Source of the DNA: Octopus sinensis
Lineage: Eukaryota
Direction: 5' to 3'
Length of the DNA stretch: 64,000 nt
Assembly: GCF_006345805.1 (NCBI RefSeq)
Contig: NC_043005.1
Coordinates: 36,270,001-36,334,000 of the forward strand
Positions 3,051 through 52,977 of the stretch are shown here, piece by piece. Under the pieces are notes generated by a model, which worked only from the letters and a program-made list of their open reading frames with translations, did not search any database and was not told where the DNA came from. The stretch's first letter is position 1. Every line of letters starts with the position of its first letter. The translations under genes were made by a program, and so were the position numbers.

Positions 3051-3169
3051 CACCCAGGACTAATAGAACTGCAAGAATTCTTTATAGAATTCTTTAAGCA
3101 TCACCAGTAAACAATTAGTTCGCTGACTAGACAGCTGACACTTTCTACATTAGAAACTGTGCAAAAAGT

Positions 3170-3691
3170 AGGGACTAGAGAGAGGCAAGACGTAGTATGA
3201 ACACAAACCACAGAGTGGCAAAGTTGGAGACTAGCAAAATCCTCTGGAACTTCCCAATCCAAACAGATCAAGTGCTAGAGCATAACAGATTGGACCCAGT
3301 GGTGGTGGACAAGATGCACCACGTATGCTATATAGTTGAATTTTGCATGTCCCTTTGGCCCACGAATAATCAAAAAGGAAGGTGAAAAGATAGATAAATA
3401 CAACCCTCTTATGAACGAAATAGACTGGCTATGGAAAACGAAGGTGAAGATAGTGCCAATTATTGTTGGGTTCTTGGGAACAGTATCAGAAGGCATCAAG
3501 GGAAATATAAAGGAAATTGGAATAGTGTGCCCAGTGGAACTGTTACAAAAGGTTTGCCTCCTTGGCACAACTAGAATAATCTGTATCAGATAGCTGAAAA
3601 TAATGGATAGCATCGTGCCGTAGGCTGCAGATAGGAAGCCCGCTACGCATGTAAGACCCCAGGAGATCCAACAAAACCTGTGATAAAGAGA
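3170..3691 (+). mobile_element. Dong/R4-type RLE LINE, family F, 3' fragment
   Basis: ILWNFPIQTD..NRLD.VVVD, EKIDKY, VPIIVGFLG, LQKVCLLGT (RLE C-terminus); 3' end runs directly into (AAT)n. Confidence 0.85.

Positions 3692-3780
<89 letters not shown>
3692..3780 (+). repeat. (AAT)n microsatellite
   Basis: Pure AAT tandem repeat between two elements. Confidence 0.98.
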
Positions 3781-3782
<2 letters not shown>

Positions 3783-4336
3783 GCCCTGATGCAGTACCAG
3801 GCAGTGGCTCTCATGGCTTCTGATCTTAACTGATTGGAAGTGTTATCATGTACATTGTTTTGTCTTGGTTTAAAAGATGGGCTACAGCAAATATTTTGCT
3901 CAATACCACAGATTTGCTTGTCAGTTGTTTGACCTTAACCAGTTGAGCATGTCACTTAGTGGCTGACGATATGTGCATCTCTGATCACGAGCAGAAGTAG
4001 TGGGGGAGCATCAGAGCCATGTGTTGAGAGGGATTCTTTAGGGTTTGGATAATTCACCTCTGGAAACATGGGTGATTCGTTCAACATCCTTAAACAATCC
4101 TTATTCAAGGACCTTTTGAGCGGGATGGGTTACTCTACCAGAAGAAAATTCTAACTGGGCCCCACCTGCAAGGTCATGTGCTGTTTATCTTGATATGAGA
4201 TCACCATGTCGCGCTCATATGGTTGTGATGCATGTGCCTAGTGTACCCTTATCAGACGGGTAGTCATGATGGGTATACTGGGCTTCATATATTTTACCCC
4301 AGTGTCACTTTGATGGCATGCACTGCTCTCTCACTC
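3781..4336 (+). mobile_element. ~556-bp non-coding interspersed element embedded in (AAT)n, full-length copy 1
   Basis: Starts ATGCCCTGATGCAGTACCAGGCAG, ends CTGCTCTCTCACTC; flanked both sides by (AAT)n; three further copies in the window; no recognisable ORF. Confidence 0.85.
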
Positions 4337-4394
<58 letters not shown>

Positions 4395-4409
4395 GTAGTA
4401 ATAATAATA

Positions 4410-4884
4410 GTCTTGGTATAAAAGATGGGCTACAGCAAATATTCTGCTCAATACCACAGATTTGCTTGTCAGTTGTTTGACCTTAACCAGTTGAGCATGT
4501 CCCTTAGTGGCTGACGATATGTGCATCTCTGATCACGAGCAGAAGTAGTGGGGGAGCATCATAGCCATGTGTTGAGAGGGATTCTTTGGGGTTTGAATAG
4601 TTCACCTCTGGAAACATGGGTGGTTCTTTCAACATCCTTAAACAACCCTTATTCAGGGACCGTTTGAGCAGGATGGGCTACTCAAAATGAAGAAAATTCT
4701 AACTGGGCCCCACCTGCAAGGTCATGTGCTGTTTATCTTGATATGAGATCACCATGTCGCGCACATATGGTTGTGATGCATGTGCCTGGTGTACCTTTAT
4801 CAGACGGGTAGTCATGATGGGTATATTGGGCTTCGTATATTTTACCCCAGTGTCACTTTGATGGCATGAACTGCTCTCTCACTC
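4410..4884 (+). mobile_element. 556-bp element copy 2 (5'-truncated)
   Basis: Very similar to 3862-4336 with the same 3' end; (AAT)n on both sides (4337-4409 and 4885-4941). Confidence 0.85.
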
Positions 4885-4941
<57 letters not shown>

Positions 4942-4942
<1 letters not shown>

Positions 4943-5078
4943 CTTTCTACTAAAGGCACAAGGTCTGAAATTTGGTGGAAGGGGACAAGTCGATTACATC
5001 GACCCCAGTGCTTCACTGGTACTTAATTTATCAACCCCCGAAAGGATAAAAAGCAAAGTCGACCTCGGCGGAATTTGA
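4942..5078 (-). mobile_element. SINE family B, 3' part
   Basis: AAGTCGATTACATCGACCCCAGTG..GGTACTTAATTTATC..CCCGAAAGGAT..GCAAAGTCGACCTCGGCGGAATTTG core shared with many copies. Confidence 0.8.
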
Positions 5079-5572
5079 TGATACAGTATCAGTATCATGG
5101 CTTCTGATCTTAACTAATTGGAAATATTAACATGTATACATTTGTGTAAAAAGACGAGCCTCAAAGTTGCTTGTCAGTTGCCTGACCTTAACCAATTGAG
5201 TGTGCGTCTTAGTGGCTGACAATATGTGCATCGCTGTGGGGGTAGGGCATCGTAGCCATGTGAGGAATTCTTCGGGGTTTGAATAATTCACCTCTGGAAA
5301 CGTTAGTGTTTCCTTCATCATACTTAAATAATCCTTGTTCAGGGACCTTTTGAGCGGGAAGGGTTACTCGACTTGAAAAAAAAATTCTAACTGGGCTCCA
5401 CCTGCAAAGTCAGGCGCTCTTTATCTTGGTATGAAATCATGATGTCGTGCATATATGGTTGTGATGCATGTGCCTGGTGTACCCTTATCAGACAGGTACT
5501 TATGATGGGTATACTGGGCTTCGTATATTTGTACCCCAGTGTCACATCTCTGATGGCGCTCCTCTATCATTC
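5079..5572 (+). mobile_element. 556-bp element copy 3 (diverged, small deletions)
   Basis: Collinear similarity to copy 1 (CATGGCTTCTGATCTTAACT..., CACCTCTGGAAAC, ACCCTTATCAGAC); followed by a compound trinucleotide tract. Confidence 0.8.
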
Positions 5573-6994: not shown

Positions 6995-7041
6995 CTAGCT
7001 TACAAAATAATAATAAAATAATAATAAATAATAATAATAAT

Positions 7042-8260
7042 AAAACTAGCTTACAAAACAACCACAATTGGACTGGCCAAATATAACTAGCTTACAAAAC
7101 AACCACAATTGGACTGGCCAAATATCTCGAAATATCGAATGACTGGATGCTAAAGCTCGTGGAAAGTCACGAGAGACGAAAGAAGCTTCATTCTATCATA
7201 AAGGAAAGCAAACAATTTGCTATTGATCTCGTGCAGGATACCCAAACTGAACAACCCGAGGGAAGTACGGCAACTATTGTTGCAAAGAAGGTGAAAATGA
7301 TGGCAATGAAAAAAGCGCACGAGCAATTGGCTGATAGGTGGGAGGAGAAACCTCTGCACGGCAAATATGTGACCCGCAGCAAACAAGCTAATGTTGACCA
7401 GAAGCAAACCCATCAGTGGCTACGGAGCTCAGGGCTAAAAGCAGAGAGCGAAGGTTTCATCCTGGCTGCTCAAGATCAAAGCCTATTAACCCGGAACTAC
7501 CAGGCCAATGTGATGAAAAATGGAGCGGACCAAAAATGCCGATTCTGCAACGACATGATTGAAACAGTGGACCACCTAATCTCTGGATGTAAAGTCTTAG
7601 CACCAGTGGAGTATAAATTAAGACATGACAGAGTTGGCCAATATCTCCACTGGCTAATAAGTCGGCATTACAATATCAAAACTGCCGACAAGTGGTATAA
7701 TCACCACCCTGAGGCTGTAACTGAAGGAGAAAATGTAGCCATTCTGTGGGACTTTCCAATACATACAGACCGAACCATCAAGGCCAATAAACCAGATATT
7801 GTTGTGAAAGACCAAAACAATAAATTTTGCTTATTGATCGACATGAGCATCCCCTGTGATCATAATATCTCAGCGAAAGAGTTTGACAAGCTCAGAAAAT
7901 ATAAAGACCTACTCATTGAAATTGAGAAAATGTGGCATCTCAAGGCGGTTACAATACCAGTGATCGTAGGAGCACTAGGAATGATCAAGAAGGGAACCGA
8001 AAATTATATGAGAATGATCCCTGGCTTACCATCCCTGCAAGAAGTGCAAAAGATTGTCTTAACTGGTACATCACACGTATTGAGAAGAGCATTGTCGATG
8101 TGAGAACTGTTGCTGCTCATGTATTTTAATTTAACTTAAAAAAAAAAAATGAACGAACTATTGAGTTTGGTTTAATGGCCTACCAATGTATACTATGAGT
8201 TTCTTTGCCCTAGGAGTCGGGAAGACACTCGGCAAGAAATGGAAGCAAATTTGAAAGAAG
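7042..8260 (+). mobile_element. Dong/R4-type RLE LINE, family A, 5'-truncated
   Basis: Open frame 7147-8103 plus a short 3' UTR; both ends in (AAT)n. Confidence 0.92.
7147..8103 (+). CDS. C-terminal part of RLE non-LTR retrotransposon protein (CCHC zinc knuckle + PD-(D/E)xK endonuclease)
   Basis: W.EKPLHG, WLRSSGLKAESEG..AAQDQ, CRFC..HLISGC, RHD, LWDF, KPDIVV, IDM, KLRKY, PVIVGALG; frame open back to the truncation point (LAYKTTTIGLAKYL). Confidence 0.9.
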   Translation: MLKLVESHERRKKLHSIIKESKQFAIDLVQDTQTEQPEGSTATIVAKKVKMMAMKKAHEQLADRWEEKPLHGKYVTRSKQANVDQKQTHQWLRSSGLKAESEGFILAAQDQSLLTRNYQANVMKNGADQKCRFCNDMIETVDHLISGCKVLAPVEYKLRHDRVGQYLHWLISRHYNIKTADKWYNHHPEAVTEGENVAILWDFPIHTDRTIKANKPDIVVKDQNNKFCLLIDMSIPCDHNISAKEFDKLRKYKDLLIEIEKMWHLKAVTIPVIVGALGMIKKGTENYMRMIPGLPSLQEVQKIVLTGTSHVLRRALSM

Positions 8261-8286
8261 AAAAAAAAAAAATAATAATAATAATA

Positions 8287-9860
8287 ACAGTTCATGGATT
8301 TACCAAAGAAATAGATATGAAATTTGGATTAGAGAAATGCGCCAAAGTAACCCTGAAAAGAGGAAAACTAATTAAGAGTAGCAACATCACACTAGATAAA
8401 ACCAATGAAATAAAAGAATTAGACCAAAGCCAAACTTATAAATACTTAGGAATCCATGAACTAGATATGACACAACACACACAAATGAAAGAGAAAATAA
8501 AAAAAGAATATTATAGACGGGTTAGATCAATACTAAAAACAGAGCTCAATGCTAAAACCAAGATACTAGGTATTAACGCTTTAGTTATAAGTTACAGCTA
8601 CAATATCCTTAACTGGACACTAAATGAACTGACCAAAATAGATAGGAAAACAAGAAAAATAATGACAGGATCTAGGATGCATCACCCAAAATCTGACATA
8701 GAAAGACTATATATACAATGTATAGAAGGTGGTAGAGGCCTTATACAGCTGGAAAACTACTATAAAATAACCACCATAGGACTGCAAAAATATCTACTTC
8801 AGAAGGAAGGAAAACTGATACAAATAGCGGCAAAACACGAGCAAAACAAAAAACTGTTCTCAGTATTTAAGGAAGCTGACAAATACAAACAAGAAATCAT
8901 ACCACCTAATAAATATGAAGAAGATGAAGAAACAACAAAAGCTATAAAACAAATGAAATCCAAACTAAAAATAGAACAGCAAAGAACCATGATAAAACGA
9001 TGGCAAGAAAAGCCCCTTCATGGTAAATACTGCACTAAACTAAACGCAAAAGAAATAGACAAAGAAAAATCCCAGCAATGGTTGAGAAGCTCAGGACTTA
9101 AAGCAGAGACAGAGGGATTTTTAATTGCAGCACAAGACCAAAGCCTCCCCACCAGAAATTACCAAAAACATGTAATGAAAAGAAATATAACAAGTAACTG
9201 CAGAATATGTGGAGGTGGACAAGAAACAATAAATCATATTATCTCTGGCCGCCCAGTCCTGGCTAAGAAGGAATATATTCACAGACATGACAGAGTTGGA
9301 ACCTACATACACTGGAAGCTATGCCAACATTATGGAATAACAACAGAAAAAAGATGGTATAGGCACACACCAGAAAAGGTTACAGAAAACGAGAAAGCAA
9401 CCATACTCTGGGATATGCCGATACACACAGATAGAGAAATTAAGGCCAACAGACCAGATATAGTTGTCAGAGATCATGAAGGAAAAAAATGCTTTCTAAT
9501 TGATGTATCAATACCGGCAGATGACAACGTGCCTCTAAAAGAAATGGAGAAACTCTCAAAATACAAAGACCTGGAAATAGAGGTAACCAGAATGTGGAAT
9601 GTAAAAACAGAAACAATTCCTATCATAGTAGGTGCATTAGGCATGATAAAAAAATATTCAGACAAATACATAACAAAAACACCAAGACTTACAAACACAT
9701 ATAACACAGAAAATTGCACTACTAGGCACTGCACACATCCTACGCAGAACACTTTTCATACAATAACCATCAGAGCATCACAACAAATCACAGCACATAT
9801 CCAAGGCACACAGAGCTACGCTCGGTAGTGAAGTGAAAGCACGCTATAAAAATAAAACTA

Positions 9861-9863
<3 letters not shown>
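8287..9863 (+). mobile_element. Dong/R4-type RLE LINE, family B, 5'-truncated (RT thumb to RLE)
   Basis: MKFGLEKC, YKYLG, GGRGL, CRIC..H (last Cys changed to Arg), RHD, RPDIVV, EKLSKY; one frameshift near 9703 displaces the QKIALLGTAHILR end; flanked by (AAT)n. Confidence 0.92.
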
Positions 9864-20157: not shown

Positions 20158-20637
20158 ATGCCCTGATACAGTACCAGGCAGTGGCTCACATGGCTTCTGA
20201 TCTTAACTGATTGGACGTATTAACATGTACATACTTTGTCTTGGTTTAAACGATGGGTTATAGCATATATTCTGCCCAATATCGCAGATTTGTTTGTCAG
20301 TTGCTTGACCTTAATCAGTTTACCATATCCCTTAGTGTATCTCTGATTATGAGTAGGATCTCTGGCGAAGCATCATAGCCATGTGTTAAGACGGATTTTT
20401 TGAGGTTTGGATAATTCATCTCTGGAAACATAGGTGTTTCCTTTATTTTGAATGAGATGGGCTACTCGACAGAAAAATTTCACAAGTTGTTTATCTTGAA
20501 AAGGGATAACCATGTCACACACATATAGTCATGGTGCATGTGCCTTGTGTACCCTTATCAGACGAATAGTCATGATGGGTATATTGGGTTTCGTATATCC
20601 CAGCGTCAGTTTGATGGCATGCGCTGCTCTCTCATTC
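20158..20637 (+). mobile_element. 556-bp element copy 4 (diverged, internal deletions)
   Basis: Same 5' start (ATGCCCTGATACAGTACCAGGCAG) after AAT/AAAT repeats and same 3' end (CTGCTCTCTCATTC) before AAT. Confidence 0.85.
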
Positions 20638-21299: not shown

Positions 21300-23920
21300 C
21301 AATAATAATTAAAAGAATTAAAAAGGAAACTTGAAGAATAGTCGCAAATTTGAAAAATTGATAAATTGTGGTGATGATACAAAAGGACTGAATGTTGCAA
21401 TAAAAGAACAGAAGCAGCGCATGCTTACCAAAATATCAACGCTAACTAGGTCTGAACAAACCGGCATAGCCGATTGTTTAGAATCGACCAAAACAGATTT
21501 TATCAAGAAATTAATGGTGATACAGAGTGCGAAAAATTAATCCTTGATACTGATGAATGTCGACAGTTTTGGGGTAAGATATAAATAAGCAAGAACAACA
21601 CGATTCTGGAGCTGCATGACTCTGCAGTCTGACGAAAACAGCGCCTTATCCCTAGCAAAGAGCTATCCCCTTTACCAAAGGCAGTATCAGAAATATGAGC
21701 AAAAAAGGAGCAATTGGAAAGTAGCTGAACCTGATGGTATGCAGGCATTTTGGATGAAAAAGTTCAGTAGGTGCCATAAATTGATTGCAGAGAAATTTAA
21801 TGCATTGATTGGAGGAGAAGAAATCTCGGGCTGGTTGACCAAAGGACAAAACCGTTTTGTGTTTGAAGGATGTATCAAAACGAAATGCCGACAATTACAG
21901 ACCAGTGTCTTGCCTCATATTAAAGTGGAACTTACTTTCAGGGGGGACTGTAGAAGAAATGTACAAAGTTCTTGATGATAACGACATCTCATCGATGGAG
22001 CAAAAGGGTTATAGTAGGAGATGCAGAGGTACCAAAGATCAATTATTAATAGAAAAAATGGTAAAGCAAGATTGTAAGCGAAGGAAGACAAATTTGGGAA
22101 TGGCCTGGATCGACTACCGCAAAGCTTACGATTTGATTCAATATTCGTAGATCATTGAGTGCTTAGAATTGTTTGGAAATGCTAGAAATGTGACATGTTT
22201 TCTGAAGAGAAGTATAGTGGGGTGGAAAACTAGATTGTCATTGTGCGGACAAAGTTTGAGTATCCTGGGCATCAGGAGAGGAATTTTCAAGGAGATAGCT
22301 TATCTCCATTGCTATTTTTCTCTGTATGATTCCTCTGCATTTGTTGCTGAGGAAATTGAACCTGGGTAATCAGTTAAAGGGAAAATCTCAAAGAACCAAC
22401 CACCTCCACTTCATGGATGATTTGAAGCTGTATGGTAAAACTGAGGCACAAGTGAGTTCTTTGGTGAACACGGTCCACTGTTTTAGTGCTGATATTAAGA
22501 TGTAATTCGGACTCAAGAAGTGTGATACAATGTACGTGAAAAGAGGTAAGGTACAGTTCCTGGTAGGGATAGAATTACCTAAAGGAGAAGTAATTAAATA
22601 AATTGAAAAGGGAGGTTATAAAAAACTTGGCATACTAGAGTTCAACGAAATCATGGAGAAGGAAATGAAAGAACAGCTGGCGATAGAATATTTCCAAAGA
22701 CTAAGATTGGTGTTGTGCTCAAAATTGACTGGATGGAATAAAACCCAAGCAGATAATATTTGGGTGATAGCAACACTTCGGTATGGACCTGAAATCATAA
22801 ACTGCCAAAAGAAAGAACTGATGAGCATGGATATGATTCGAAGACAAGGAAAATATTGAAAGGGCACTTAGTACTCCAAGAGTGACACTGATAGGTTGTA
22901 CTTGTCCAGAAGAAAGGCTGGGAGACTTTTGATCAGTTGCCAGGATTGTGTCGAAGCTGAGGAAAACAGCTTAGAGTGGTATCTAAAAAATGCCGTGAAG
23001 CCATTAATGAACCATGTGCAGAAGACCGACCAATAATTATGTAAAGAAAGTAAATCTATAAGAGAAGAATACAAACAAAGAAACAGCATGGATGGGAAAG
23101 AAATGTATTGGTCAGTTTGTAAGATATACGAATCCCAAGACAGATACCAAGAACCGGTGGTTATGAATGCGGAGGAGTGATCTAAAGATTGAGACAAAAG
23201 AACTTATATGCACGGCACAAGAACAAGCGTTAAGGACGAACTATGTGAAGTGCAGAATTGACAACACAACTGAGAGCGACAAATGCAGAATGTATGGTGA
23301 GAGAGGTGAAACGATATGATCATAGTGTTAGCGTATGCCCGTAACTGGCATAGCGCTATTACAAAAGACAACATGATAATGTAGCAAGAATGATCCATTC
23401 GGAGTTGTGTTGGAATCACCGCTTAAAAAGAGCAAAGACGTGGTATGACCAAATCTCAGAAAGAGTTACCAAGAATGGAGAATATAAAATCTTGCGAGAT
23501 GCAATGATTTAGTGTGACCATCAGGTCAGATATCACGAACCTGACATTGTTGTGGCGAAAAAAAAAAGAAAACACTTGCATAATAGCATATCCCGGTGAC
23601 AACAGGATCAAAGGGAAAGAAGAAAAACTGAATATCCATGACAATTCGAAGTGGGAAATACTCAGGTTGTGGGCAATGAAGAAGGTGGACGTGATACCAG
23701 TAGCAATTGGCGCGCTTGGGAGTATCAGTACTCAACAACCAAGATGGCTCAAAAGATGGGTACAAATGTAAAGATAGAACACGTACAAAAATCATCATTG
23801 CTTGGAACTGCAAGAGTTCTCCGCAGGTTTGTTGAAGCATGACCAGTAAACGTGTGTTACCTTAGTCTACGGGATGTGGACAGCTGACACTTTCCCTCAT
23901 TCCCAGCAAAATAATCTGTG
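21300..23920 (+). mobile_element. Dong/R4-type RLE LINE, family C, long decayed copy with complete RT
   Basis: [86 protein letters not shown]; many stops; ends at (AAT)n. Confidence 0.88.
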
Positions 23921-24033: not shown

Positions 24034-25169
24034 TGGATGTTAAAACTTGTCTCAAAACATGAAAACAAGAAAGCATCATACTCAGTAACAAAACAGGCAA
24101 AGGAATATCTAAGTAAATTCCGAATACAACAAATTTCGGAATTAGAGATAGACATACAAGAAACAGGTACAGAAAAAGCTAAGCGCATGAAAACCCGTGC
24201 TAAATCTGCGGCCTTAGATATTCTGAATGATAAATGGCAAGAAAAACCTCTCTATGGCAAATACCCAAAGAGAGCAAATAATGCAGATGTTGACAAGGCC
24301 CTGACTCATCAATGGCTAATGGCCTCTGGCTTAAAATCTGAAACAGAGGGGTTTATCATAGCAGCTCAAGATCAATGCCTACCAACAAGAAACTACCAGG
24401 CCAACATATTAAAGATCAGAAGCAGTCCAACGTGTCGTGTATGCAAGCAACAAAATGAAACCATTGACCATGTGGTCTCCAAGTGCAGTCTTCTAGCGCC
24501 TACAGAGTATCTCAACAGGCACGATAGAGCTGCCCAATATATTCACTGGGTAATCTGTAAAAACCTGGATTTGCCCCATGAAAAAAACTGGTGGGAACAC
24601 AAACCACCCCCAGTGCTTGAAAATGACCACATCTCACTCCTCTGGAACTTCACCATTCAAACTGACAGAAAGATAGATGCAAATAGGCCAGACATCATAT
24701 TGAAAGACTTCAAACAAAGAACATGCCTCCTCATTGATATGACTGTCCCAATCGATATAAACGTATCTGTCAAGACCTACCAAAAACTGAGCAAATATAA
24801 AGATCTTGAAATAGAAATCAGCAAAATGTGGAAGCTGAAGACTAAAACAATACCTGTTGTCATAGGTGCCCTGGGAATGATAGCAAAAGGGGCTGATAGC
24901 TACTTAACTCAGATACCAGGAAACCCAAAAATGGCAGAAATTCAAAAGATAGTGCTCATGGGAACTGCTCATATCCTACGCAAAATACTTTCTATGTAAT
25001 CTCAAGGTTTAAAACAAACATAATTTTCATTAGTACAACACCCCCACCCACCAAATATATGGCACACTAGGCATAACAACAACATGAACTTCCAACCCTG
25101 TTGTCTCCTGAGGTCTCTGGGTGAGACTAGGAGCCAACTTGTACAAATATAAAGCAAAAGTCAAACATA

Positions 25170-25170
<1 letters not shown>
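24034..25170 (+). mobile_element. Dong/R4-type RLE LINE, family D, 5'-truncated
   Basis: Uninterrupted 320-aa frame plus 3' UTR; (AAT)n on both sides. Confidence 0.92.
24037..24999 (+). CDS. C-terminal part of RLE retrotransposon protein (CCHC + RLE)
   Basis: WQEKPLYG, AAQDQ, CRVC..HVVSKC, RHD, RPDIIL, IDM, QKLSKY, PVVIGALG; clearly paralogous to, but distinct from, 7147-8103. Confidence 0.9.
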   Translation: MLKLVSKHENKKASYSVTKQAKEYLSKFRIQQISELEIDIQETGTEKAKRMKTRAKSAALDILNDKWQEKPLYGKYPKRANNADVDKALTHQWLMASGLKSETEGFIIAAQDQCLPTRNYQANILKIRSSPTCRVCKQQNETIDHVVSKCSLLAPTEYLNRHDRAAQYIHWVICKNLDLPHEKNWWEHKPPPVLENDHISLLWNFTIQTDRKIDANRPDIILKDFKQRTCLLIDMTVPIDINVSVKTYQKLSKYKDLEIEISKMWKLKTKTIPVVIGALGMIAKGADSYLTQIPGNPKMAEIQKIVLMGTAHILRKILSM

Positions 25171-33930: not shown

Positions 33931-34328
33931 AGCTTCGTAGTGCTGTTTCTCTTTCTATTACTCTCTTTAACTTTAAGTCTTCTCCAAACACTGATACGTT
34001 GAAACCAACGGGAGCGACCATTATTAGTATACTTATTATGTACTTTTAATCTGCATGTTTGTCACAATCACTTGCCAAGACACATCCAGCATCCTAGGGC
34101 AGGTGAAGGATAAGAGATGTTACAGTATGACAGAAAGCTTGGGGAGGGGAAGTGGCAGGGGCAGTTGCGACATACCTTCATGTAATACAACACAGACATT
34201 TAAATTGATAGGGGCTTTCTAAGGATGTAGGCAGTACTTGTCAGCACAATCTTTTGGATTTCTCTGAGACATGGTTCTCCTGGGATGCTATCCAGATGTT
34301 TCTGACATCATTTTTATCATACCTATTA

Positions 34329-51120: not shown

Positions 51121-51434
51121 TGGGGCAGTGAATAGCAACAGTGAAGTCACAGAAAATATGCCGACCATGCTTTTTTAGGGATATGTTATATCCTCTTCTT
51201 CAGTGGGGTGTTAGGGATATGCTACATTCTCTTCAATAATGGAGTTTGATTTCAAAGGAGATTTGGCTGCTATTCTTTGCAGGCTGCCCTCGTACTTGCT
51301 CCATCAATATTGCAGTTAGTTTTGGCGGTGTGGGTCGTGGCTATGTGACGCTGTAGTGGTTTGTATGGGAAATATTTGAAATGTTTATGCATGCTACGAA
51401 AGAAAAATATCCCATATTTTATGCACTCATTTCT

Positions 51435-52397
51435 TAATTCTTTATTGCCCACAGGGGGCTAAACATAGAGGGTTCAAACAAGGACTGACAAAGGGATTAA
51501 GTCGATTACATCGACCCCAGTGTGTAACTAGTACCTAATTTATCGACCCCGAATAGATGGAAGGCAAAGTCGACCTCAGTGGAATTTGAACTCAGAAAGT
51601 AATGGCAGGCGAAATATCTATTTCTTTACTACCCACAAGGGGCTAAACACAGAGGGGCGAACAAGGACAGACAAACGGATTAAGTCGATTATATCGACCC
51701 CAGTGCGTAACTGGTACTTATTTAATCGACCCCGAAATGATGAAAGGCAAAGTCGACCTCGGTGGAATTTGTACTCAGAACGTAACAGCAGGCGAAATAT
51801 TTATTTCTTTACTACCCACAAGGGGCTAAATTAAGACATGACAAACAAGGACAGACAAACGGATTAAGTCGATTATATCGATCCCAGTGAGTAACTGGTA
51901 CTTATTTAATCGATCCCGAAGTGATGAAAGGCAAAGTCGACCTCAGTGGAATTTGTACTCAGAACGTAACGGCAGGTGAAATACCTATTTCTTTACTACC
52001 TACAAGGGGCTAAATTAGGACAGGTCAAGCAAGGACAGACAATCGGATTAAGTCGATTATATCGACCCCAGTGCGTAACTGGTATTTATTTAATCGACCC
52101 CGAAAGGATGAAAGGCAAAGTCGACCTCGGCGGAATTTGAACTCAACGTAGAGGCAGACGAAATACCTATTTCTTTACTACCCACAAGGGGCTAAACACA
52201 AAGGGGCAAACAAGGACAGACAAACGGATTAAGTCGATTACATCGACCCCAGTGCGTAACTGGTACTTAATTTATTGACCCCGAAAGGATGAAAGGCAAA
52301 GTCGACCTCGGCGGAATTTGAACTCAGAACGTAGCGTCAGACGAAATACCGCTAAGCATGTCGCCCGGTGTGCTAACGTTTCTGCCAGCTCGCCGCC
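51435..52397 (-). mobile_element. SINE family B concatemer: one head plus five ~183-bp body units, 16-bp TSD
   Basis: Units begin at ~51438, 51621, 51804, 51988, 52170; TTATGCACTCATTTCT at 51419-51434 and 52398-52413. Confidence 0.92.
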
Positions 52398-52977
52398 TTA
52401 TGCACTCATTTCTGTGACGCTACTAAACTTACACTGTTGACAATGAAGTCTCCCAGTGGCTACTGATTAACCGCTTGCGTTTCAGTGATCAATATCCTTG
52501 ATAATGATGGACATCTTGCGTTTGATGCTGAAAAGTATTATTAACAAAGATAAATATAAGAGGAATTTTGCTGCAGTCTGTAGATGGTGTCGATTCTGGT
52601 AATGGAGGTGAAGAGGCGGTGTTTGTGGTGGTGGTGGTAGTGATGATGATGATGATGGTATAGTTCCAACGATCGTAGGTACTGGTGGTGCTAATGAAGG
52701 TGACAGTGAGGTGACGACAAAGAAAAACTCATCTCCATTGGGTGTCTTTGAAGGCAACACGATTTGTTAAAATTACTGAATGCCAGCTTTAAGACTGCAA
52801 TTGAGATGGAACTTGTCCTCCAGTTTTAGAACCACCTAACGACACACATCTACACACATACACACACAAACACGTAAATGTTCAGGTATGTGTGTGTCAG
52901 GTAAAGCCTGTAAATATGTGAGTTTAGTAAGTACCAGACGCGAAACTGTCGGTCTTTGAGTGGCTTGTATATACATC

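What the first reader, a model, noticed from the sequence alone, without database searches (positions are those of the whole stretch)
3781..4336. Candidate non-autonomous partner of microsatellite-targeting RLE LINEs (556-bp non-coding element)
Seen: four copies (3781-4336, 4410-4884, 5079-5572, 20158-20637), all on the strand reading (AAT)n. Three end directly in AAT repeats, two share an identical 5' start, one is 5'-truncated with an intact 3' end, and there is no ORF, TIR or tRNA B box. About 75 nt before the 3' end it folds as GTGTACCC-TT-ATCA-GAC(GGGTA)GTC-A-TGAT-GGGTATAC (4241-4278), resembling the hairpin in the 3' UTRs of the neighbouring LINEs (e.g. ACCTTA-GTCTAC(GGGAT)GTGGAC in family C). 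Established: Dong-type elements target TAA repeats by target-primed reverse transcription, 5' truncation is a TPRT hallmark, and non-autonomous partners of RLE LINEs are few (R2 SIDEs are the best known). Inference: this is a SINE/SIDE-like passenger that recruits Dong/R4 protein by structural mimicry and so inherits (AAT)n targeting.
Basis: partly seen in the sequence, partly recalled or inferred. Interest (0 to 1): 0.85.

Follow-up and report, generated by a model that had tools for sequence, protein, structure and literature searches.

The report
Microsatellite-targeting SINE riding Dong retrotransposons
A 556-base non-coding repeat, with over 12,000 copies sitting inside (AAT)n microsatellites, is likely copied and pasted by the enzymes of neighbouring Dong retrotransposons, possibly recognised through a similarly shaped RNA hairpin, since no sequence shared with them was found.

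Summary
The element is real and is a large family: one 3' 23-mer has 12,832 exact hits in G000, suggesting about 19,000 copies. Of 30 copies taken in genome order, 29 end at one fixed 3' base followed by (AAT)n, and 14 are 5'-truncated. Between AAT arrays it lies on the AAT-reading strand in 199 of 203 cases, like the Dong/R4-type LINEs (107 of 109), and shows similar 5' junctions. Four Dong families with intact ORFs are present. It is not a LINE 3' UTR: no sequence is shared with 94 Dong segments. About 11 Dong families share a covarying 3' hairpin. The element's hairpin is the best match within it, but only weakly (8.8 bits, E 0.08). No tRNA head or ribozyme was found. Verdict: a non-autonomous retroposon, very likely Dong-mobilised; hairpin mimicry is plausible but unproven. 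The kind is known (Entamoeba EhSINE/R4 pairs, R2 SIDEs). This variant differs in microsatellite targeting, copy number and lack of shared sequence. Repbase and Dfam could not be checked.

The parts
3781..4336 (+). Full-length young copy of the 556-bp non-coding retroposon
   Evidence: best genomic matches 96-99% over the whole length with the same two ends
4241..4278 (+). 3' hairpin (outer stem, 3x1 internal loop, inner stem, 5-nt loop), ending 58 nt before the 3' end; candidate Dong recognition element
   Evidence: fold; best hit of Dong-only model R1 in the element, 8.8 bits, E 0.076
3692..3780 (+). (AAT)n array upstream of copy 1 (target; also the tail of the Dong copy before it)
4337..4409 (+). 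(AAT)n array between copies 1 and 2
4410..4884 (+). 5'-truncated copy (element positions 82-556), followed by (AAT)n 4885-4941
5079..5572 (+). Old diverged copy (76%)
20158..20637 (+). Old copy with both ends and internal deletions, downstream of a Dong 3' UTR fragment and an AAT array
3883..4052 (+). Element positions 103-272, shared (about 74-89%) with the interior of a separate MITE-like family
3139..3691 (+). Degenerate 3' end of a Dong/R4-type LINE (family A here); 3' motif at 3611-3649
7039..8270 (+). 5'-truncated Dong-type LINE (family B here) with a 41-bp 5' tandem duplication; 3' motif at 8201-8239
8290..9863 (+). 5'-truncated Dong-type LINE (family C here); 3' motif at 9793-9831
23853..23891 (+).
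24034..25170 (+). 5'-truncated Dong-type LINE (family E here); 3' motif at 25100-25138

Best explanation
The element is a high-copy, non-coding repeat with a fixed 3' end and 5' truncations, inserted in (AAT)n arrays, that is likely retrotransposed in trans by the reverse transcriptase/restriction-like endonuclease of the genome's Dong (R4-clade) LINEs. Inferred steps: (1) an RNA with a fixed 5' start is made from many source copies, by an unidentified internal promoter or processing step; (2) Dong protein binds it, possibly through the 3' hairpin that resembles the stem/3x1-loop/stem motif of Dong 3' UTRs; (3) the endonuclease nicks the ATT-reading strand of an (AAT)n array and primes reverse transcription at the fixed 3' end; (4) synthesis stops early in about half of the copies; (5) top-strand joining after AAT-A or AAT-AA sometimes restarts and leaves short 5' tandem duplications. 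Shown: the anatomy, polarity, target, orientation, junction types and presence of intact Dong ORFs. Inferred: Dong as the enzyme (about 0.8). Weakly supported: the hairpin as the binding signal (about 0.5).
For: 3' 23-mer 12,832 hits versus 5' 23-mer 6,440. In 30 genome-order copies anchored on the hairpin: 29 end at element position 550 or later, 29 are followed by AAT, 24 have 4 or more AAT directly upstream, and 14 start after position 10. Orientation between AAT arrays: element 199 plus versus 4 minus, Dong 107 versus 2, among 421 distinct segments. Truncated copies begin with A or AA after the last whole AAT in 33 of 53 element and 40 of 57 Dong junctions, against A contents of 24% and 39%. 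5' tandem duplications were flagged in 19 of 178 element segments (2 are GAT-repeat artefacts) and 6 of 88 Dong segments (1 artefact), versus 1 of 150 and 0 of 85 internal controls. Four Dong families (B, C, E, G) have open frames of about 1190-1350 aa. A close public relative (about 65% identical) matches only R2 structures in the PDB. Element copies are young (median 3% from column majority), and young copies of families C and B lie beside them (medians 96.5% and 94% to one intact copy). Dong is reported to target TAA repeats (PMC3812793, passages). Dong 3' motifs from 11 families align without internal gaps and covary (74.6% of cells paired versus 54.5% shuffled and 35-42% slid). A model built from them alone picks the element's hairpin as the best of 11 hits in the element, in the expected register and place. 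Common transitions at predicted-paired sites keep pairing in 18 of 21 cases versus 104 of 177 rare ones (p 0.017).
Against: No Dong family shares sequence with the element, so the usual SINE-LINE proof is missing. The hairpin score is weak: 8.8 bits ranks 13th of 14 hits in the window, among chance hits. With a reduced model only 2 of 10 element hairpins were reported (9.7 and 8.0 bits; chance hits 7.3-9.4). A loose descriptor matched 126 of 300 shuffles somewhere, and 47 of 300 in the last 130 nt. In the model's register the element lacks the G that is invariant in all 19 Dong motifs. The hairpin is no better conserved than the rest of the element, and its common variants are one-sided wobble changes, not compensatory pairs. 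The structure test is partly circular, because the structure came from the same copies. 5' duplications were also flagged in 14 of 96 'other' segments. A tRNA-type SINE also sits between these arrays, in the opposite orientation, so Dong is not the only machinery associated with them. No ribozyme was found, although Bombyx Dong has one (PMC3774820). No activity was assayed.
Confidence: 0.78

Rival explanations
1. Dong mobilises it, but recognition is relaxed: the RNA's 3' (AAU)n tail pairs with the nicked target and the hairpin resemblance is incidental.
For: Weak model scores, a loose descriptor often matched by chance, and no extra conservation of the hairpin.
Against: The Dong families themselves keep a covarying 3' motif, which suggests stringent recognition. 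The element's best-matching site is on the right strand at the right distance (57 nt from the end; about 27-70 nt in Dong). Held-out true families C, J and F scored below the reporting threshold and H scored 9.9 bits, so a low score does not exclude function. Arrays hold few sense-strand residents other than Dong and this element.
Confidence: 0.3
2. The 3' end is a true descendant of an extinct or unsampled Dong family (most likely of the D/I group), as EhSINE1 is of EhLINE1. The resemblance is then homology, not convergence.
For: The 5' arm and loop of the hairpin resemble families D and I by eye. Old element copies exist (73-80%). Only four families were seen full length.
Against: No blastn or nhmmer similarity to 94 Dong segments, 192 kb. 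The genome-wide pattern of a Dong C-terminus followed by the hairpin gave 21 hits; of 18 inspected, 16 were a Dong 3' end, a microsatellite and a truncated element, and 2 were one-off fusions from different families. The best-supported loose ends on the last 132 nt in four runs were all element-internal or AAT (434 weaker rows not shown).
Confidence: 0.3
3. It is mobilised by a different LINE clade that also uses AAT/ATT arrays, and only shares a neighbourhood with Dong.
For: A tRNA-type SINE of unknown partner is also flanked by these arrays. Non-Dong LINEs were not catalogued.
Against: That SINE lies in the opposite orientation. No second coding family recurred among the segments between arrays. 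Junction phase and 5' duplications match Dong.
Confidence: 0.12
4. It is the long 3' UTR of a coding LINE, a DNA transposon or a satellite rather than an independent retroposon.
For: Positions 103-272 are shared with a MITE-like family, and one locus holds a tandem run of ten 3' fragments (L013).
Against: About half of the copies start at one fixed base directly after an AAT array. All 30 5'-anchored loci continue as the element. No TIR. 3'-biased polarity.
Confidence: 0.03

Closest known systems
EhSINE1/EhSINE2, EdSINE1 and R4-N1_ED of Entamoeba (partners of R4-clade EhLINE/EhRLE)
   Same: Non-coding, 500-600 bp, head of unknown origin, paired with an RLE LINE of the R4 clade (PMC2996970 passages; PMC3747384 table passage).
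   Different: EhSINE1 shares about 70 bp of 3' sequence with EhLINE1, and those elements lack targeted insertion (PMC1635306, abstract start only). This element shares no detectable sequence with any Dong seen, is microsatellite-specific, is in a large animal-type genome and has over 12,000 copies.
R2 SIDEs of Drosophila
   Same: Non-autonomous passengers of a site-specific RLE element that inherit its target (PMC3414825, abstract).
   Different: SIDEs are internal deletions that keep the 5' HDV-like ribozyme and sequence identity to the partner's 3' end. Neither was found here.
Dong (R4 clade) non-LTR retrotransposons
   Same: TAA/AAT target, orientation, fixed 3' end before AAT, 5' truncation, junction phase, 5' duplications and a similarly placed 3' hairpin.
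   Different: No ORF, no sequence similarity, and no ribozyme detected (Bombyx Dong has a confirmed one: PMC3774820 passages).
Described octopus SINEs (tRNA-derived; tRNA-Core and tRNA-Deu classes)
   Same: Short, abundant, non-coding retroposons (PMC8967140 passages; PMC4758252 passages).
   Different: Those are tRNA-headed. This element has no tRNA-like head.

Membership tests
Non-autonomous non-LTR retroposon (TPRT passenger) | Dispersed high-copy, non-coding | tested here: met
Non-autonomous non-LTR retroposon (TPRT passenger) | Fixed 3' end with simple-repeat tail and variable 5' truncation | tested here: met
   29 of 30 fixed 3' ends; 14 of 30 truncated; versus 47
Non-autonomous non-LTR retroposon (TPRT passenger) | Target-site duplications | not testable with these tools
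   Both flanks are (AAT)n, so a duplication cannot be told from the target; no empty sites were compared
Dong/R4 partner | Same target, orientation and junction signature as Dong | tested here: met
Dong/R4 partner | 3' sequence shared with an autonomous partner | tested here: not met
   four full-length families and about eight partial ones examined, catalogue incomplete
Dong/R4 partner | 3' structure shared with the partner | tested here: inconclusive
Dong/R4 partner | Mobilisation in trans by Dong protein | not testable with these tools
   needs a TPRT or cell assay
SIDE (short internally deleted element) | 5' and 3' ends derived from an autonomous element | tested here: not met
   no similarity to the 5' or 3' ends of families C, E, G or the available part of B
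SIDE (short internally deleted element) | 5' HDV-like ribozyme | tested here: inconclusive
   No Rfam hit and none from two descriptor scans, but the scans had no positive control and also found none in the local Dong 5' ends
Classical SINE (tRNA, 7SL or 5S head, Pol III) | Small-RNA-derived head with A and B boxes | tested here: not met
   no A box within one mismatch, two one-mismatch B-like 9-mers at positions 118 and 299 (box patterns recalled)
MITE / DNA transposon | Terminal inverted repeats, symmetric ends | tested here: not met
Dong (R4 clade), for the neighbouring LINEs | Single ORF with RT, CCHC knuckle and RLE motif; TAA target | tested here: met
   clade name rests on anatomy and target, no tree with named Dong elements was built

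The most novel reading that the evidence does not exclude
A SINE-like parasite of foreign origin that has converged on the Dong/R4 3' recognition fold without any sequence from a LINE. It uses several divergent Dong families, makes a precise 5' end without a Pol III head or known ribozyme, and so inherits (AAT)n targeting. The covarying stem/3x1-loop/stem motif found in 11 Dong families would then be the R4-clade template signal.
Probability: 0.3. Interest if true: 0.75.

Novelty: new variant of a known kind. Interest (0 to 1): 0.52.

Why it matters
Site-specific RLE retrotransposons are studied as models of TPRT and as gene-insertion tools, and how they choose a template is well known only for R2. 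This genome offers several intact Dong families, a covarying candidate 3' signal shared across them, and a very successful passenger with no shared sequence. That makes the question 'structure or tail?' directly testable for the R4 clade. The family is also about 0.3% of the genome (roughly 19,000 copies of 400-550 bp in 2.72 Gb; inferred). Ten literature searches showed no paper describing a non-autonomous Dong partner. The library lacks most subscription papers, and Repbase and Dfam were not available, so the family may already be catalogued.

Tried and rejected
Short DNA queries of the 5' and 3' ends returned nothing because the search skips very common words; this is not evidence of absence. 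Rfam on the element and on three Dong loci gave only low-complexity hits. HDV-like and hammerhead descriptors found nothing, without a positive control. Consensus folding of 122 copies gave an implausibly weak structure and was set aside for averaged single-copy folds. 100-nt windows show no strong local folding signal (best z about -2, at the 3' end and at 301-400), although the whole element has z -4.4. Searches with the two old window copies retrieved only ordinary young copies, so no old subfamily was available for covariation. Expression: no RNA holder listed; two runs only guessed to be RNA hold the 3' part as contigs, which shows nothing about transcription. Two direct Dong-element fusions (L097, L105) were not used to name the partner, since they come from different families and may be deletions. 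The script stopped after 18 of the 20 fetched loci (21 hits). Earlier findings of the scan: none returned. No supplements were read.

Full report
Observation. The element has no ORF, TIR, tRNA or Rfam match. The host G000 is a 2.72-Gb genome. That it is an octopod cephalopod is my recollection from the look of the neighbouring tRNA-type SINE; no call tested it.

Family. A 23-mer in the 3' hairpin has 12,832 exact hits and a 23-mer at the 5' end has 6,440, with zero for the reversed controls. The 3' 23-mer is exact in 112 of 168 copies not chosen by it, giving about 19,000 copies, likely a floor. In the first 30 hairpin hits on contig C1, 29 end at element position 550 or later and are followed by AAT, 16 start within the first 10 bases, and 14 are 5'-truncated at positions 53-368. 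In the first 30 5'-anchored hits, 24 run to the 3' end in one piece, 2 more reach it after a duplication or deletion, and 4 do not; two of the 30 belong to one insertion. Copies differ from the column majority by a median of 3%, with a young wave near 2% and older ones up to 16%. No haplotype dominates among 122 full-length copies, which suggests many source copies. Runs of four other coded organisms hold the family along nearly its whole length.

Partner. The AAT arrays are crowded with RLE-type LINEs. About 12 families were told apart by their 3' UTRs, and four (B, C, E, G) have copies with open frames of about 1190-1350 aa. Public relatives carry an RT domain, and one about 65% identical to family G matches only R2 structures. 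With the TAA target reported for Dong (PMC3812793, passages) I call them Dong/R4; no tree was built. Among 421 distinct segments between AAT arrays, the element is on the AAT strand 199 times against 4, and Dong 107 times against 2. The loci were chosen on these elements, so abundances are biased but orientation is not. Truncated copies of both begin with A or AA after the last whole AAT (33 of 53 and 40 of 57). Both show short tandem duplications of the 5' terminus (19 of 178 and 6 of 88 flagged, 3 of them repeat artefacts; controls 1 of 150 and 0 of 85; 14 of 96 unclassified segments were also flagged). The Dong copy at window 7039-7125 has one. A tRNA-type SINE also lies between arrays but on the opposite strand.

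Shared sequence. None was found. blastn and nhmmer against 94 Dong segments (192 kb, including full-length C, E, G and most of B) gave nothing below E 1. A genome-wide pattern for a Dong C-terminus followed within 220 bases by the hairpin gave 21 hits. Of 18 inspected, 16 were a Dong end, a microsatellite and a truncated element, and 2 were single fusions; this pattern misses families with other C-terminal codons, such as B. Laying four runs on the last 132 bases showed only element-internal or AAT loose ends among the best supported. The same method on the whole element did reveal a separate family of at least 765 copies that shares positions 103-272, so it can detect sharers of that abundance.

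Shared structure. Nineteen 3' motifs from 11 Dong families align without internal gaps as outer stem, YNA, G-started 6-bp stem, 5-nt loop, one base, outer stem. Of the cells, 74.6% pair against 54.5% in shuffles and 35-42% when slid, and 11 of 15 pairs change on both sides. I named the structure by eye from these sequences, which favours it. A model from these alone ranks the element's hairpin first of 11 hits in the element (8.8 bits, E 0.076, rough) but 13th of 14 in the window. With families C, H, J and K left out, K scored 22.4, H 9.9, and six C, three J and one F motifs were not reported; 2 of 10 element hairpins scored 9.7 and 8.0, and chance hits 7.3-9.4. A loose descriptor matched 126 of 300 shuffles. 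The match is therefore compatible with function but not proof. The element lacks the invariant G in the model's register, though an alternative register with a 3-bp inner stem keeps it. The whole RNA folds better than all 100 shuffles (z -4.4). Common transitions keep predicted pairs more often than rare ones (18 of 21 versus 104 of 177, p 0.017, partly circular). The hairpin is not more conserved than the rest.

5' end. Full-length copies start at one place, and restarts after 5' duplications mostly begin at the same bases, which points to a defined RNA end. Bombyx Dong uses an HDV-like ribozyme (PMC3774820, passages and section 16). Neither Rfam nor two uncontrolled descriptor scans found one in the element or in the local Dong 5' ends. 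How the RNA is started is unexplained, and expression was not shown.

Mechanism. Most likely the RNA is taken up in trans by Dong protein, which nicks (AAT)n arrays and primes at the fixed 3' end (0.78). Whether recognition is by the hairpin (convergent, or inherited from a lost family) or by the AAU tail is open.

Comparison. It works like EhSINE1 with EhLINE1 (PMC2996970, passages; PMC3747384, passages) and like R2 SIDEs (PMC3414825, abstract). It fails their defining test of shared sequence and is not a Pol III SINE. PMC8967140 (12 of 13 passages) reports Dong-R4 expansions and tRNA-type SINEs in octopuses without such a partner in the passages seen. PMC11481361 has no mention of Dong (term search). 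PMC7245038 (passages) and PMC4758252 (passages) gave background only. Ten searches found no description; Repbase and Dfam were not available.

Verdict. A real, abundant, microsatellite-specific non-autonomous retroposon and a new variant of a known kind. Interest 0.52; 0.75 if structure-only recruitment is confirmed.

Noticed in passing
window 3611-3649, 8201-8239, 9793-9831, 23853-23891, 25100-25138, 34068-34106 (-): A covarying 3' UTR motif (stem, YNA/1-nt internal loop, stem, 5-nt loop) shared by 11 otherwise unalignable Dong families; candidate R4-clade template signal.
   Followed up: partly
L170-L199 (e.g. L175:1150-1600): A MITE-like family of about 450-470 bp with long inverted arms (at least 765 hits) carries element positions 103-272 in its interior at about 74-89% identity; it is not AAT-flanked. 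Direction of capture is unresolved.
   Followed up: partly
window 4943-5078 and many loci (e.g. L147, L150): A tRNA-type SINE (Nin/Deu-like label recalled) often has ATT/AAT arrays on both sides, in the orientation opposite to Dong; its partner is unknown.
   Followed up: no
L013, element positions 454-556: A tandem run of ten 103-bp 3' fragments that contain the hairpin, separated by AAT arrays, behind a full-length copy.
   Followed up: no
window 7039-7125; L022, L030, L042, L047, L115, L127, L155: Short tandem duplications of the 5' terminus, often repeated several times and separated by 1-2 extra bases, at both element and Dong insertions.
   Followed up: partly
L072, L232, L250 5' ends: No HDV-like ribozyme was detected at the 5' ends of Dong families G, E and C, unlike Bombyx Dong; C and G share a short complementary motif pair near the 5' end.
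   Followed up: partly
window 51434-52401: A tandem array of about 183-bp units derived from the tRNA-type SINE body.
   Followed up: no
L097, L105, L042: Direct fusions of Dong 3' or ORF sequence to a truncated element without an AAT spacer; template switch or deletion.
   Followed up: no
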